NCBI RefSeq assembly: GCF_013167455.1
Contig: NZ_CP038328.1
Source: Escherichia coli O157:H7
GTDB lineage: Bacteria; Pseudomonadota; Gammaproteobacteria; Enterobacterales; Enterobacteriaceae
Length of the DNA stretch: 64,000 nt
Strand: one strand, 5' to 3'
Made by a program: the position numbers. Shown here in pieces: positions 30,001 to 36,000 of the stretch. Each line of letters begins with the position of its first letter. The first letter of the stretch is position 1.

Positions 30001-33000
30001 ACGCGGTTATAGCATGACCCGTGTTCAGGGTGAAGAGTTTACGTTCGACAAATGCCATCAGGTTGTCGGTTAACTCCATGCCTGGGATGTTCGGCAGTGC
30101 GCCTTTGAACTGCGTTTTATCGACAATCCATTCGCTGAAAGTTTCTACCGTCACTTCCAGCGGATCGTTAGTTGCCGAAGCCGAAGGCGGTACGATGCGG
30201 TCAACGGCGGAATCGACAAAGCCAACGTGTTCTTCTACCCACGCTTTGGCGTCTTCTGGTAGGGCGTTCATCACATGACCTTTCAGCTGCGTGGTACCGC
30301 GTACCATGTTTTCACAGGCGATGATGTTCAGCGGGGATTCATTACCTTGTTCTTTACGTTTCACCAGCCCTTTGGCGATAGCCGGAGCAATACGTTCCAG
30401 CACAACCGGGCCAACGGCGGTAGTGACTAAATCGACCTGAGCAATCAGATCAACGACATCATCACCAATGCTGCTGACAGCATCGACGCCGGAAACGGTA
30501 TCTACCTGCTCGGTTTCACCGACCACATGAACCTGATAGCTATGACGGGCATTCAGGGCATCAAGTACCACCTGATTGACATCGGCAAACGTCAGTTGGA
30601 TACCCGCGTCTGCCAGCAGTTTACCGATAAAGCCACGACCGATATTACCTGCGCCAAAATGTAATGCTTTCATAGTATTAACCTTCATCAATGTTTTTAC
30701 CCGAGAGGGCTGGGGTGAGGCTTTTCCCTCACCCAAACCCTCTCCGTGAGGAGAGGGTAGGATTGGATTACTTACGACCTGCCAGCAGTTCCAGCACTTC
30801 ATCCACGCTGGTGGTGTGTGCCAGACGCTCGATGACGGACTCATCATCCAGTGCGTTGGTCAGGCTGGTGATAACCTGAATGTGCTCGTTGTTACGGGCA
30901 GCAATACCAATCACCAGACGAGCAATGTCATCTTCTTCTTCACCGAAGCGCACGCCTTCCGGGTACTGGCAGAACACCACGCCCGTTTTCAGTACGCGAT
31001 CTTTCGCTTCAACCGTACCGTGTGGCACCGCGATAGACTCACCCAGATAAGTCGGGGTCAGTTTTTCACGATCCAGCATCGCCTGAACGTACTCCGGCTC
31101 AACGTAACCGCCTTTCACCAGCTGCTCGCCAGCAAAACGAATCGCTTCTTCTTTGGTTGCTGCTTTGCGACCGAGGAAGATGTTCTCCGCGCCCAGTTTG
31201 AACAGGTTAGCACTGGAATCGTCAAAGCTGTCTTTCAGACTGTCTTTCACTTTCACTTCGTTTTCAGTATGTCGCTGGGCAGCAACCAGACGTTCAGTCA
31301 GGCTGGTGTACAGGCCGCTGTCGAGGAAGTTGGTTAGCGAAATATGCTGTGCCTGAGGAACCTGGCGCATAGCGCGTTCGGTCAGGTCACGGTGAGTGAT
31401 GACGAGGTCCACATCTGGCGGCAGGTTGTTGATCGCGCTGTTAGTGACCGAAATCTGTGACAGACCTGCATCCTGAATTTTCTTACGCAGCACGCCTGCG
31501 CCCATCGCACTGGAACCCATACCGGCGTCACAGGCAACGATGATTTTACGTACGTGGCTCAGGTCGTTAGTCACATCGCCCGCAGACAGCGGAGATGCAC
31601 CTTTAGACTCAGCTTTCATGTCCTGCATACGACGAGTTGCTGCTTCAATATCATCTTCTTCTTTCACTTTGCTGGTTTTCAGCAAAATAGCAGAGACAAC
31701 GAAGGAGACAGCCATCGCCGCACACACACCCGCGATGTTAGCGAAATAAGCACCTTTTGGTGTCATCGCCAGTACAGCAAGGATAGAACCCGGAGATGCC
31801 GGAGAAACCAGACCACCGCCCAGGATAGTCAGCGTGAACACGCCAGTCATACCGCCGAGGATGACTGCGAGGATCAGACGCGGATTCATCAGCACATACG
31901 GGAAGTAGATTTCGTGGATACCACCCAGGAAGTGGATGATTGCCGCACCGCCCGCAGACTGTTTAGCGCTACCACGACCAAAGAACATGTACGCCAGCAG
32001 CACGCCCATACCTGGACCTGGGTTAGCTTCAATCAGGAAGAAGATTGATTTACCCAGTTCATGGGACTGCTGAATACCCAGCGGCGAGAAGATACCGTGG
32101 TTAATGGCGTTGTTGAGGAACAGGATTTTCGCCGGTTCAACAAAGATAGACGCCAGCGGCAGCATGTCATGGACAACCATGAAGTTAACGCCCGCAGCCA
32201 GCATTTTGGACAGGGTTTCAACAATCGGGCCAATGCCGAGGAATGCCAGAATAGCGAGGATCATCCCGATGATGCCTGCGGAGAAGTTATTCACCAGCAT
32301 CTCAAAACCGGATTTGATCTTACCGTCTACCCAGCGGTCGAAGTGCTTAATGCACCAGCCGCCCAGCGGACCTGCAATCATAGAACCGAGGAACATCGGC
32401 ATGTCTGCGCCGACGATAACGCCCATGGTGGTGATGGCACCGACTACGCCGCCACGTTCGCCGCCTACCAGCTTACCACCGGTATAACCGATCAGCAGCG
32501 GCAGGAGATAAGTGATCATCGGCCCGACCAGCTTCGCCAGCGTCTCGTTCGGTAACCACCCTGTTGGAATAAATAACGCGGTGATGATACCCCACGCGAT
32601 AAACGCGCCGATATTTGGCATCACCATGTTGCTGAGGAAACGACCAAAGCTTTGCACTTTGATCTTAATATCGGATGACATAAAAACACCCCTTCTTATG
32701 TTTGCTGTCGCGCAGGCTGGAAGCCCGAGGTTTTTTGTTAATGTGGCGGCAGAGGTAGCCGGACCTTGTAGATACTGCGAAATCTGGCACTGAATCGGTT
32801 AACTGTCCAGTCGACGGCCTTTTGTGTGATATCAATCACATAAATATAGGGGGTAGAGAGGTAATTGACGTGACGTTCATCACAAAACGCTTGTGTAAAA
32901 AAGCAACAAGGCGGCGATTTTCGCTAAAAATGGCATTTAAATGTGAGTAGTGTCACATTTTTGTTTTGATGGTTTGTTGAATCTTTGTGATCTGAATCAC

Positions 33001-36000
33001 AAGATATTTTCTTACGGCGTTCACCTGATGTGATCTACAGCATGTTATGCCTTCGTCATACAATCGTTATGTAACTAAGCAACTCATCACCTCTAAAAAT
33101 TATTCTTTGGTGTTATGGCGAGAATCGCGAACCCGGATTATTGTCAAAATATCAGCCTGACTCCCTTCTGGCTGCCAGCCCAAAAACAACACTGATAAAC
33201 GTGAATCCGAGGCAGATATGTTTCTAAACTATTTCGCGTTGGGAGTGCTGATCTTCGTCTTTCTGGTGATTTTTTATGGAATCATCGCGATACATGACAT
33301 CCCTTATCTGATTGCCAAAAAGCGCAATCACCCCCATGCCGACGCTATTCATACGGCGGGCTGGGTGAGCCTGTTTACTCTGCATGTTATCTGGCCGTTT
33401 CTGTGGATCTGGGCGACGCTCTATCAACCGGAGCGTGGCTGGGGTATGCAGTCACATGTTGCGTCGCAGGAGAAAGCGACTGACCCGGAAATCGCCTCAC
33501 TTTCTGACCGAATTTCCCGGCTGGAGCATCAACTCGCCGCCGAGAAAAAGACTGACTATTCCACGTTCCCGGAGATCTAATTATGGATCTATTGATTGTT
33601 TTAACTTACGTGGCGCTGGCGTGGGCGGTCTTTAAAATCTTCCGCATTCCGGTAAATCAGTGGACGCTGGCGACGGCGGCGCTGGGAGGCGTGTTTCTGG
33701 TGAGTGGTTTGATTTTATTGATGAACTACAACCACCCTTACACTTTTACCGCGCAAAAGGCAGTGATAGCGATCCCTATCACGCCACAGGTGACGGGAAT
33801 TGTTACTGAAGTCACTGACAAGAATAATCAGCTTATTCAAAAGGGCGAGGTGCTTTTTAAGCTCGACCCGGTTCGTTACCAGGCGCGAGTTGACAGACTT
33901 CAGGCTGACCTGATGACGGCGACGCATAATATAAAGACGCTGCGTGCGCAGCTCACTGAAGCGCAGGCCAACACCACCCAGGTTTCAGCGGAGCGCGACC
34001 GTCTGTTTAAAAATTATCAACGTTACTTGAAAGGCAGCCAGGCGGCGGTGAATCCGTTCTCGGAACGTGACATCGACGATGCGCGGCAAAATTTCCTCGC
34101 GCAGGATGCGCTGGTGAAAGGCTCGGTGGCGGAGCAGGCGCAGATCCAGAGCCAGCTCGACAGTATGGTTAACGGCGAGCAATCGCAGATTGTGAGCTTA
34201 AGAGCGCAACTTACTGAAGCAAAATATAACCTTGAGCAGACTGTCATTCGCGCGCCGAGCAATGGCTACGTTACTCAGGTACTGATCCGCCCAGGTACAT
34301 ACGCAGCTGCCTTGCCGCTGCGTCCGGTGATGGTCTTCATCCCCGAGCAAAAACGGCAAATTGTCGCCCAATTTCGGCAAAACTCGCTGTTACGTCTGAA
34401 ACCCGGCGATGATGCGGAAGTGGTGTTTAACGCGCTACCTGGGCAGGTGTTTCACGGCAAACTGACTAGTATTTTACCTGTCGTGCCAGGCGGTTCTTAT
34501 CAGGCGCAGGGGGTATTGCAATCATTAACGGTCGTGCCCGGCACGGACGGTGTGCTGGGAACCATTGAACTGGACCCTAACGATGATATCGATGCCTTAC
34601 CCGACGGCATCTACGCCCAGGTGGCGGTTTACTCCGACCATTTCAGCCATGTTTCGGTGATGCGGAAAGTGCTGCTAAGAATGACCAGCTGGATGCATTA
34701 TCTTTATTTGGATCATTGAGGGGGAGGGGGGAGATTATGGAACTTTGCTCCTTGTAAGGACTAATTATTTTTGCATATTACTTCATTAGCTGCGATGATT
34801 TTTCTTTAATATTCATTATGTTAATAAGTTCTGGATGAGTGTGCTCTCATTGGATTTTTTATCCGTCTTGTTCTGCCGCAGGATGAGACTATACATCGTC
34901 GAGATCGCAATGATGATATGAGTTGTTCCTCCTGCGACGGCTCTAATCAAAAAAGAGCAGGAGTGCTTTTCCATCTATTGCGATGATGGCTTTATTATCT
35001 GAAGGATGACAGTCACATTTAAAAAATATTTAATCTATAGATCACAATGTAGGGTCATGGAATATATGTATACAACTATTTTCTTCTTCACTTTTAATTA
35101 TCGTATTCATTATAAAACTAAGTTAAAAAACTCCTGGAGAGTGAGTTATTAATATATTTTTAAATGAAATTAAGTTATCATTCATCGATGCATTTTATAG
35201 AATCATCAATGGCCATAATAGTACTATTAACTCTCAATTTTATATTTTTATCATCACTACAAATATTAACTGAATTTATATCAATGATTTTTTTTATTCT
35301 TATCTTTTATTTTATTTACTGTTTCAATGCAATCAGCGGCAAGTTGGAGTGGATTTAGATTTTTCAGATATGGTCTTATGATCTTTCCCTTACTTAATAA
35401 ATAGCATGTATAGGATTCGGAAAGTCCAGCATCTATTTTGTATCTCATTATATTAGATAAGGATGTGAGAAATTCCTTGTTATCATTCGCAGCCATATAT
35501 GCCAGTCCGAGTTCAGCCTCTGCGGCCTTACAGGCAAAATAGCTTAGTGAACACGCTTTTCGTCCCTCTTTAGTACTGGCTGATATTAGTGCCCATAATA
35601 TTGCTTTGTCTGCCAAATCTAACTCTCTCTGAAATTGTCTTGCAGTAACTGCACTCGCAGAAATAGAGAAAAAAATACAATTGTTAATAACCTTGCCATA
35701 TTTTTTAGTCCGTAACTGTTAATGTGCTATCTGGCTCTGAAAATATTAACTCATTTAATTTTTGCATGTCATTAGATAAACCAGTTATACAACCCTCGGA
35801 ACAGAATCGAGGTCCTAAAGACGGACCAAAAGCGTTTAAACAACTATGTATTGAAAATCCATTGCGATTATAAGTTCCTGTATTAACTGACGGTACTAAT
35901 CGTATGCCGTCAGGTTTTCTATTGCTTGCTCCCGGGTCATTAACATTCCAACTCCATAGGCCTTGAGATATTGGCCATCTATTTATAAATGTGTACAACG

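What the first reader, a model, noticed from the sequence alone, without database searches (positions are those of the whole stretch)
32825..33001. Cluster of consensus CRP sites in the mtlA upstream region
Three exact TGTGA-N6-TCACA sites and one near-consensus site lie within about 180 bp upstream of mtlA. This matches the multi-CRP-site architecture described for the E. coli mtl promoter. The same 535-bp gap also serves divergent yibI-yibH, which might therefore share catabolite control.
Basis: partly seen in the sequence, partly recalled or inferred. Interest (0 to 1): 0.3.

Follow-up and report, generated by a model that had tools for sequence, protein, structure and literature searches.

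The report
Known CRP sites of mannitol promoter

Summary
Exact TGTGA-N6-TCACA sites lie at 32825-40, 32942-57 and 32986-33001, and a one-mismatch site lies at 32869-84. These are the only 0- or 1-mismatch matches in the 64-kb window (0.06 exact matches expected). They also take ranks 1-4 of a CRP matrix scan built from independent ChIP-seq sites.

The DNA is 100% identical to E. coli between mtlA (minus strand) and yibI-yibH (plus strand). The sites are the published CRP5, CRP4, CRP3 and CRP2 of the mtlADR operator.

Centre-to-centre spacings of 44/73/44/43 bp match Lee et al. 2026 exactly and place the mapped start site near 32774. According to that paper, cAMP-CRP activates the promoter, and CRP pairs 43-46 bp apart recruit the repressor MtlR, which has no DNA-binding domain.

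In 79 Enterobacterales species I found the 44-73-44 layout essentially unchanged (70 exact). It is present whether or not yibIH is the neighbour (27 of 79), so the cluster belongs to mtlA.

Shared CRP control of yibIH remains unproven. The published links are by proximity only, and the conserved promoter-like elements of yibI lie more than 110 bp from the nearest site.

Verdict: already known, low interest.

The parts
32825..32840 (.). CRP5: promoter-proximal CRP site with an exact TGTGA-N6-TCACA core, centre 32832.5, which is -58.5 from the mtlA transcription start.
   Evidence: (18.2 bits). Listed in ChIP-seq as TGTGATTGATATCACA. Essential for mtl expression per PMC13421365.
32869..32884 (.). 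CRP4: CRP site with 9 of 10 core bases (CGTGA-N6-TCACA), centre 32876.5 (-102.5), 44 bp from CRP5.
   Evidence: 16.3 bits. Listed in ChIP-seq as TGTGATGAACGTCACG. Essential.
32942..32957 (.). CRP3: exact-core CRP site, centre 32949.5 (-175.5), 73 bp from CRP4.
   Evidence: 14.8 bits. Its mutation causes a slight reduction of expression.
32986..33001 (.). CRP2: exact-core CRP site and the best-scoring site of the window, centre 32993.5 (-219.5), 44 bp from CRP3.
   Evidence: 19.9 bits. Listed in ChIP-seq as TGTGATCTGAATCACA. Essential.
33029..33044 (.). CRP1: weak fifth site (TGTGATCTACAGCATG, 7 of 10 core bases), centre 33036.5 (-262.5), 43 bp from CRP2.
   Evidence: 10.2 bits, rank 9. Listed in ChIP-seq Table 1. 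Dispensable and poorly occupied. The left half-site TGTGATC is conserved in Enterobacteriaceae.
32774..32809 (-). mtlADR core promoter: -35 TGGACA (32809-32804), 17-bp spacer, extended -10 TGcCAGATT (32789-32781), and an inferred transcription start near 32774, giving a 5' UTR of about 93 nt.
   Evidence: The start position is inferred from the published -58.5 for CRP5 together with the sequence. TGGACA sits at the same distance from CRP5 in 53 of 79 species, and TGCCAGATT or TGCGAGATT in 53 of 79.
32790..32803 (+). Cra (FruR)-like operator CTGAATCGGTTAAC, lying between the -35 and -10 elements.
   Evidence: Sequence located. The TGAATCG core is conserved in many species. The literature states that Cra binds and represses mtl. 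The assignment of this exact sequence as the Cra site is my inference.
30768..32681 (-). mtlA, the PTS mannitol transporter subunit IICBA and first gene of the regulated operon.
33218..34719 (+). yibI (33218-33580, DUF3302 protein) and yibH (33583-34719, HlyD family), the divergent neighbours. They are context and not shown to be part of the system.

Best explanation
The stretch is the upstream activating and operator region of the E. coli mtlADR promoter. Four high-affinity cAMP-CRP sites form two pairs, each 44 bp centre to centre, with 73 bp between the pairs. A weak fifth site lies 43 bp further upstream. When glucose is absent, cAMP-CRP occupies the sites. CRP5 at -58.5 acts like a Class I site and helps RNA polymerase use a weak promoter (TGGACA-17-TGcCAGATT). 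CRP4 and CRP2 are also indispensable, and CRP3 contributes slightly; they probably hold the DNA in a phase-dependent architecture. Each pair of CRP dimers 43-46 bp apart is also the docking surface for a dimer of MtlR, a repressor with no DNA-binding domain of its own. Without mannitol, MtlR sits on the CRP-DNA complex and blocks activation. With mannitol, dephosphorylated EII-Mtl (MtlA) sequesters MtlR at the membrane. With glucose, dephospho-HPr frees MtlR to rebind. Shown here: the sites, their strength, their exact spacing, and their conservation. Taken from the literature: CRP binding, the requirement for each site, and MtlR recruitment. Inferred: the exact -35/-10 assignment and the Cra operator.
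For: Identity with E. coli mtlA/yibI comes. The spacings 43/44/73/44 equal the published centres -262.5 to -58.5. CRP1 has 7 of 10 core bases and CRP2 and CRP3 have 10 of 10, as published. ChIP-seq shows two CRP peaks 136 bp apart with these exact site sequences. In genomic SELEX the yibI/mtlA spacer was the second most abundant CRP clone, with 38 clones. PhyloScan ranks mtlA/yibI first among CRP predictions. My scan of 79 Enterobacterales species found 44-73-44 in 70 and within 1 bp in 7 (six vary only the middle spacing to 72 or 74; Tolumonas has 45-74-43). Edwardsiella has 44-63-44, one helical turn less. The phylogenetic footprint peaks on the GTGA/TCAC half-sites and on the extended -10. 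E. coli polymorphisms inside the sites fall in the N6 spacers with one exception, and no indel occurs within the cluster.
Against: Nothing contradicts the assignment. Three caveats remain. -58.5 is 3 bp off the canonical Class I position of -61.5. How sites at -102.5 to -219.5 activate is not established; the authors offer looping or anti-silencing as hypotheses. I could not see the paper's Figure 2C to confirm its -35/-10 assignment.
Confidence: 0.95

Rival explanations
1. The same CRP cluster, mainly the distal sites CRP1/CRP2, also directly activates or represses the divergent yibI-yibH promoter, so that both transcription units share catabolite control.
For: Both genes lie downstream of the CRP sites. 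The ETEC ChIP-seq table lists the CRP2+CRP1 peak under yibI. Shimada 2011 notes that both genes flank the SELEX fragment and that divergent promoters are often both CRP-regulated. [quoted passage not shown] The CRP1 half-site is retained in all 27 yibI-bearing loci although it is dispensable for mtl.
Against: The ChIP-seq assignment is purely by distance: a gene start within 300 bp of the peak (footnote). The 44-73-44 cluster is fully conserved in 52 species where yibIH is not adjacent. The CRP1 half-site also occurs in about 18 of those 52, so it is not yibI-specific. The only promoter-like elements conserved across genera (ATGGCG at 33115-20, TATTGT at 33139-44, with TATnnT invariant in 12 genera) would put CRP1 near -114 and CRP2 near -157. 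The E. coli-only candidate TCTACA-19-TACAAT would put them at -34.5 and -77.5. None of these is a standard Class I or Class II position. The distance from CRP2 to the conserved block varies by about 10 bp among genera, whereas CRP-to-CRP spacing never varies. A urine-induced promoter-trap clone of UTI89 starts only 144 bp upstream of yibI, so it contains none of the five sites. Induction at stationary-phase entry is also explained by RpoS or other regulators.
Confidence: 0.25
2. The palindromes are operators bound directly by the mannitol repressor MtlR, as in the older operator model, rather than CRP sites.
For: They are repeated palindromes in the operator region of an operon with a dedicated repressor, and repression maps to this region.
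Against: The sequences are perfect CRP cores and score above the median of in-vivo CRP sites. MtlR has no DNA-binding domain and does not shift the operator DNA alone; it binds only when two CRP dimers are bound.
Confidence: 0.01
3. The cluster is a chance accumulation of CRP-like words in an AT-rich spacer and has no function.
For: Intergenic DNA is AT-rich, and CRP half-sites are short.
Against: 0.06 exact sites are expected per 64 kb and three are observed within 177 bp. Positions and spacings are invariant across 79 species while the spacers diverge.
Confidence: 0.01

Closest known systems
E. coli K-12 mtlADR operator-promoter, a Class III CRP-dependent promoter with sites CRP1-CRP5 (five sites already described in earlier work cited as refs 18, 20 and 37 of Lee et al.; Lee et al., Nucleic Acids Res 2026, PMC13421365)
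   Same: It is the same locus. The sequence is 100% identical to E. coli genomes, and the site sequences, the number of sites, the centre-to-centre spacings (43/44/73/44), the position relative to the mapped start, and the flanking genes are all the same.
   Different: Nothing differs.
E. coli malK/malE divergent control region with several CRP sites
   Same: It is a divergent intergenic region with an array of CRP sites forming a higher-order nucleoprotein complex.
   Different: The adjacent malK CRP sites (CRP2/CRP3) tested by Lee et al. are 34 bp apart, and MtlR does not bind them unless the spacing is engineered to 44 bp. In mal, both divergent operons are established targets. For mtlA/yibI, only mtlA is established.
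CytR-CRP repression complexes, for example deoP2
   Same: A repressor acts by protein-protein contact with tandem DNA-bound CRP dimers, which gives an anti-activation logic.
   Different: CytR has its own DNA-binding domain and operator. MtlR has none and reads only the geometry of two CRP dimers.
pap operon remote CRP site at -215
   Same: [quoted passage not shown] Lee et al. cite it as a precedent for CRP2 at -219.5.
   Different: pap has a single remote site working with Lrp and PapI, whereas mtl has a four-site array. The phase dependence of mtl is only inferred, here from the conserved 73-bp gap (63 bp in Edwardsiella).

Membership tests
cAMP-CRP DNA binding site | A two-fold symmetric TGTGA-N6-TCACA core inside a 22-bp site. 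| tested here: met
   Three exact cores and one with 9 of 10 bases. Matrix scores of 14.8-19.9 bits, against a median of 13.0 for 103 in-vivo sites.
cAMP-CRP DNA binding site | Occupancy by CRP in vivo or in vitro, dependent on cAMP. | not testable with these tools
   Published evidence exists: ChIP-seq peaks with these sequences, SELEX, and cAMP-dependent EMSA on the -287 to -33 fragment.
cAMP-CRP DNA binding site | Conservation of the half-sites across species while the N6 spacer and the flanks drift. | tested here: met
   Footprint across 79 species. E. coli polymorphisms are confined to N6 except position 32955.
Class III CRP-dependent promoter (mtlADR) | Two or more CRP sites upstream of a sigma-70 promoter with an imperfect -10 element, with the proximal site near a Class I position. 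| tested here: met
   TGGACA-17-TGcCAGATT at 32809-32781, with CRP5 centred 58.5 bp upstream of the start implied by the published map.
Class III CRP-dependent promoter (mtlADR) | Transcription requires CRP and the individual sites. | not testable with these tools
   Published: a crp deletion abolishes mtlA expression, and chromosomal mutation of CRP2, CRP4 or CRP5 abolishes expression and growth on mannitol.
MtlR-CRP-DNA repression platform | Adjacent CRP sites 43-46 bp apart, centre to centre. | tested here: met
   44 bp (CRP5-4), 44 bp (CRP3-2) and 43 bp (CRP2-1) in the window. The two 44-bp pairs are conserved in 78 of 79 species, the exception being Tolumonas with 45 and 43 bp.
MtlR-CRP-DNA repression platform | mtlR is encoded in the same operon, and MtlR supershifts the CRP-DNA complex. 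| not tested
   I did not re-annotate mtlR in the window; mtlD lies downstream of mtlA. The supershift is published.
CRP-dependent yibIH promoter (hypothetical) | A CRP site centred near -41.5, -61.5, -71.5, -82.5 or -92.5 from a mapped yibI transcription start. | tested here: inconclusive
   No mapped start was found. Candidate promoters put the nearest sites at -34.5/-77.5 (TACAAT, not conserved) or about -114/-157 (conserved TATTGT). No other site of at least 8.3 bits lies between 33045 and 33217.
CRP-dependent yibIH promoter (hypothetical) | Co-occurrence of the CRP cluster with yibIH across genomes. | tested here: not met
   The cluster is present in 79 of 79 loci, while yibIH is adjacent in only 27.

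The most novel reading that the evidence does not exclude
The distal half of the array (CRP1/CRP2/CRP3), together with MtlR docked on it, also gates the divergent yibIH promoter. That would make yibIH a second CRP- and mannitol/MtlR-responsive unit, although the mtl operon is currently described as the only MtlR target. A more modest new point that the data do support is that the 73-bp gap between the two CRP pairs is as conserved as the 44-bp spacings. It is 72-74 bp in 78 species and 63 bp, one helical turn less, in Edwardsiella. This argues for a phase-locked higher-order CRP-DNA structure in activation.
Probability: 0.2. Interest if true: 0.35.

Novelty: already known. Interest (0 to 1): 0.08.

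Why it matters
It matters little as a discovery. The five-site CRP array of the mtl promoter has been known since the 1990s and was dissected site by site in 2026, including why the 43-46-bp spacing matters. The check is useful as a calibration: a reader working from sequence alone recognised a real regulatory architecture. The comparative survey adds independent support for the published spacing rule, with 44 bp invariant in 78 of 79 Enterobacterales species. It also adds support for a phase-dependent role of the 73-bp inter-pair distance, which the authors only hypothesise. Whether the poorly characterised yibIH pair, which is urine-induced and contributes to UPEC fitness, is co-regulated remains a small, cheaply testable open question.

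Tried and rejected
1. I looked for crp-mutant or ROMA data for yibI in Zheng et al. 2004 (PMC528793) and Grainger et al. 2005 (PMC1308901). Neither paper is held.
2. I looked for a mapped yibI transcription start. The Cappable-seq GTF supplement is truncated long before 3.77 Mb. The SMRT-Cappable-seq supplements mention neither yibI, yibH nor mtlA.
3. I looked for yibI, yibH or mtlA in the supplements of the Crp ChIP-exo paper, the delta-crp evolution paper and the 2026 carbon-source atlas. There were no occurrences or no files held.
4. An Rfam scan of 32600-33300 at E <= 1 found no RNA family, so there is no known riboswitch or leader in either 5' region.
5. The consensus promoter scan found only one irrelevant hit, and the terminator-like hit at 32803-17 lies inside the mtlA promoter and is taken as chance. 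The real mtlA promoter is too weak for that scan.
6. I considered a small ORF at 33115-33195 (26 codons) upstream of yibI as the reason for the conserved ATGGCG block. I rejected it as a conserved protein: the ORF ends after 2-4 codons in three Enterobacter-group species, is fused in frame with yibI in E. albertii, and its length and sequence otherwise vary, while the DNA block downstream stays conserved.
7. A sigma-54 reading of TGGCGAGAATCGCG was rejected because the GG/GC spacing is off by 2 bp (inspection).
8. I tested whether CRP1 is conserved specifically where yibI is present. The association is confounded by phylogeny, and CRP1 also occurs next to yibF in other genera.
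Full report
**Observation.** Between mtlA (30768-32681, minus strand) and yibI (33218-33580, plus strand) the window holds three exact TGTGA-N6-TCACA words, at 32825-32840, 32942-32957 and 32986-33001. Dinucleotide shuffles of the 64-kb window give 0.06 such words on average, and none of 100 shuffles gave three. With one mismatch allowed, the only additional match in the whole window is CGTGACGTTCATCACA at 32869-32884. As an independent test I built a 16-bp CRP weight matrix from 103 ChIP-seq-derived sites of ETEC H10407 (PMC4287617, Table 1), leaving out the four mtl/yibI entries. The four sites are the four best scores of the window, at 19.9, 18.2, 16.3 and 14.8 bits; the median of the training sites is 13.0 and the next best score in the window is 11.7.

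**Corrections to the observation.** The gap is 536 bp. The 180 bp is the length of the cluster, whose site centres lie 151.5-312.5 bp upstream of the mtlA ATG.

**Identity of the locus.** The 701 bp around the gap are 100% identical to many E. coli chromosomes, including an O16:H48 (K-12-type) strain and O157:H7. The region is present in 5,404 of 5,426 complete genomes, always between mtlA (PTS mannitol transporter IICBA) and yibI (DUF3302), followed by yibH (HlyD family).

**What is known.** Lee et al. (Nucleic Acids Res 2026, PMC13421365) describe five CRP sites in the mtl operator. CRP1 to CRP5 are centred at -262.5, -219.5, -175.5, -102.5 and -58.5 from the S1-mapped start, giving spacings of 43, 44, 73 and 44 bp. 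CRP1 has 7 of 10 conserved bases, and CRP2 and CRP3 have 10 of 10. The window centres 33036.5, 32993.5, 32949.5, 32876.5 and 32832.5 reproduce these spacings and base counts exactly.

**The core promoter.** Upstream of that position the minus strand reads TGGACA (32809-32804), then 17 bp, then TGcCAGATT (32789-32781). This is a good -35 element with a poor, TG-extended -10 element, as expected for an activator-dependent promoter (my assignment). Between the two elements lies CTGAATCGGTTAAC (32790-32803), which looks like the Cra operator that the literature reports for mtl (inference).

**Published function.**
- A crp deletion abolishes mtlA expression.
- Chromosomal mutation of CRP2, CRP4 or CRP5 abolishes expression and growth on mannitol. 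CRP3 has a small effect and CRP1 has none.
- MtlR has no DNA-binding domain and binds only DNA carrying two CRP dimers 43-46 bp apart.

**Published binding evidence.** ChIP-seq in ETEC shows two CRP peaks 136 bp apart, listing CRP5+CRP4 and CRP2+CRP1. Genomic SELEX recovered this spacer as the second most abundant CRP clone. PhyloScan ranked it first.

**Comparative test.** A scan of one genome per species with the first 200 residues of MtlA returned 80 loci. They are almost all Enterobacterales (Escherichia to Providencia, Serratia, Pectobacterium and Edwardsiella), plus a Tolumonas metagenome-assembled genome. Scanning 700 bp upstream of mtlA with the same matrix gives four strong sites in every one of the 79 usable loci.
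- Spacing is 44-73-44 in 70 loci, 44-72-44 in 4 and 44-74-44 in 2.
- Tolumonas has 45-74-43.
- Edwardsiella hoshinae has 44-63-44.
- One Citrobacter locus shows 117-44 only because its CRP3 falls below the score threshold.

The alignment footprint peaks on the GTGA/TCAC half-sites and on the TG-extended -10 element, while the spacers between sites diverge. TGGACA and TGC(C/G)AGATT keep their distance from CRP5 in 53 of the 79 loci each. Among divergent E. coli strains, substitutions inside the sites fall in the N6 spacers with one exception (32955). The single indel, at 33096, lies outside the array. The invariance of the 44-bp pairs fits the published MtlR docking rule. The equal invariance of the 73-bp gap, and the one exception being shorter by one helical turn, fits the phase-dependent architecture that the authors only propose.

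**The yibI clause: linkage across genomes.** yibIH is the divergent neighbour of mtlA in 27 of the 79 loci (Escherichia, Citrobacter, K. oxytoca, some Enterobacter, Leclercia, Lelliottia, Yokenella, Trabulsiella and others). Elsewhere the neighbour is a divergent yibF-like glutathione transferase gene, a co-directional lipoprotein gene, or another gene (the yibF name comes from the N-terminal sequence and my knowledge). The four-site array is unchanged in all of them, so it belongs to mtlA. The weak CRP1 half-site (TGTGATC, 43 bp from CRP2) is present in all yibI-bearing loci and in about 18 of 52 others. It is a feature of Enterobacteriaceae and not of yibI. In E. cloacae and E. quasihormaechei, similarity to yibI-bearing relatives ends about 3 bp before CRP1.

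**The yibI clause: promoter candidates.** On the yibI side, the promoter proposed under an RNA polymerase SELEX peak, TCTACA-19-TACAAT (33034-39 and 33059-64; PMC3946193), points toward yibI in this sequence. It would put CRP1 at -34.5 and CRP2 at -77.5, but it is not conserved even in E. albertii. What is conserved across 12 genera is a block ATGGCG (33115-33120) followed after 17-18 bp by TATTGT (33139-33144), with T, A, T and the final T invariant. This pattern looks like a -35/-10 pair. It would put the start near 33151, with CRP1 at about -114 and CRP2 at about -157 (inference). The distance from CRP2 to this block varies by about 10 bp among genera, unlike the CRP-to-CRP spacings.

**The yibI clause: expression data.** A urine-induced promoter-trap clone from UPEC UTI89 begins 144 bp upstream of the yibI start, which corresponds to about window 33074 and excludes all five CRP sites (the mapping is my inference). 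The ChIP-seq label 'yibI' only means that a gene start lies within 300 bp of the peak. [quoted passage not shown] Many non-CRP genes do so too. I found no start-site map or crp-mutant measurement for yibI. I put direct shared control at about 0.25.

**Rivals.** Direct MtlR operators are excluded by the published EMSA. Chance is excluded by the shuffles and by the conservation. No Rfam family matches either 5' region.

**Verdict.** The finding is a correct recognition of a known regulatory region that has been fully described in the literature. Novelty: already known. Interest: low. The only open item is the hedged suggestion about yibIH, which is cheap to test with strains that already exist.

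Noticed in passing
window 33113-33147 and 33070-33084: There are conserved non-coding blocks in the yibI 5' region. tATGGCGaAAAt and, 17-18 bp later, (G)GATTAT(T/G)(G/T)T, with TATnnT invariant in 12 genera, look like a -35/-10 pair. TGTAACTnAGCAAC is also conserved. In the Enterobacter group these blocks keep their distance from CRP2 (about 130 bp), although about 125 extra bp separate them from the yibI ATG. Their function is unknown.
   Followed up: partly
window 33115-33195 (+): An unannotated 26-codon ORF (MARIANPDYCQNISLTPFWLPAQKQH) starts at the conserved ATGGCG. It is probably not a conserved protein. It stops after 2-4 codons in three Enterobacter-group species and is fused in frame to yibI in E. 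albertii, while the DNA downstream stays conserved.
   Followed up: partly
window 32876.5-32949.5 (gap between CRP4 and CRP3); loci L001-L080: The 73-bp distance between the two CRP pairs is as conserved as the 44-bp spacings. It is 72-74 bp in 78 of 79 species, and the single outlier (Edwardsiella hoshinae, L077) has 63 bp, one helical turn less. This suggests phase-locked higher-order architecture.
   Followed up: partly
window 33096: A 1-bp length polymorphism occurs in an A-run on the yibI side of CRP1 among E. coli strains (L082). Separately, PMC7858067 reports a 1-bp insertion in the mtlA/yibI spacer fixed in a long-term stationary-phase lineage. Its position is not given, and it would matter if it fell inside a 44-bp CRP pair.
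   Followed up: no
window 33034-33064 (+): Shimada et al. 2014 (PMC3946193) list TCTACA-19-TACAAT in the mtlA column of their constitutive-promoter table. In this sequence it lies on the strand that reads toward yibI and overlaps CRP1. The yibI-column entry (TATACA-18-TATAAT) is identical to the entry in the next table row and may be a copy error.
   Followed up: partly
L039, L048 versus L042, L047 (about 40 bp beyond CRP2): In E. cloacae and E. quasihormaechei, which have yibF instead of yibIH next to mtlA, similarity to yibI-bearing relatives ends about 3 bp before the CRP1 position. The rearrangement breakpoint therefore sits exactly at the edge of the part of the array that mtl requires.
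   Followed up: partly
window ~35180-35700 (by homology to L081 5080-5601) and 36796-41025 (-): Downstream of yibH, RefSeq annotates a frameshifted Imm57-family immunity pseudogene. The window also has a 1409-aa ORF on the minus strand, presumably the rhsA toxin region. I did not examine it.
   Followed up: no
window 33768-33783: The next-best CRP matrix score of the window (AGCGATCCCTATCACG, 11.7 bits) lies inside the yibH coding sequence. It is below the median of real sites and is probably chance.
   Followed up: no
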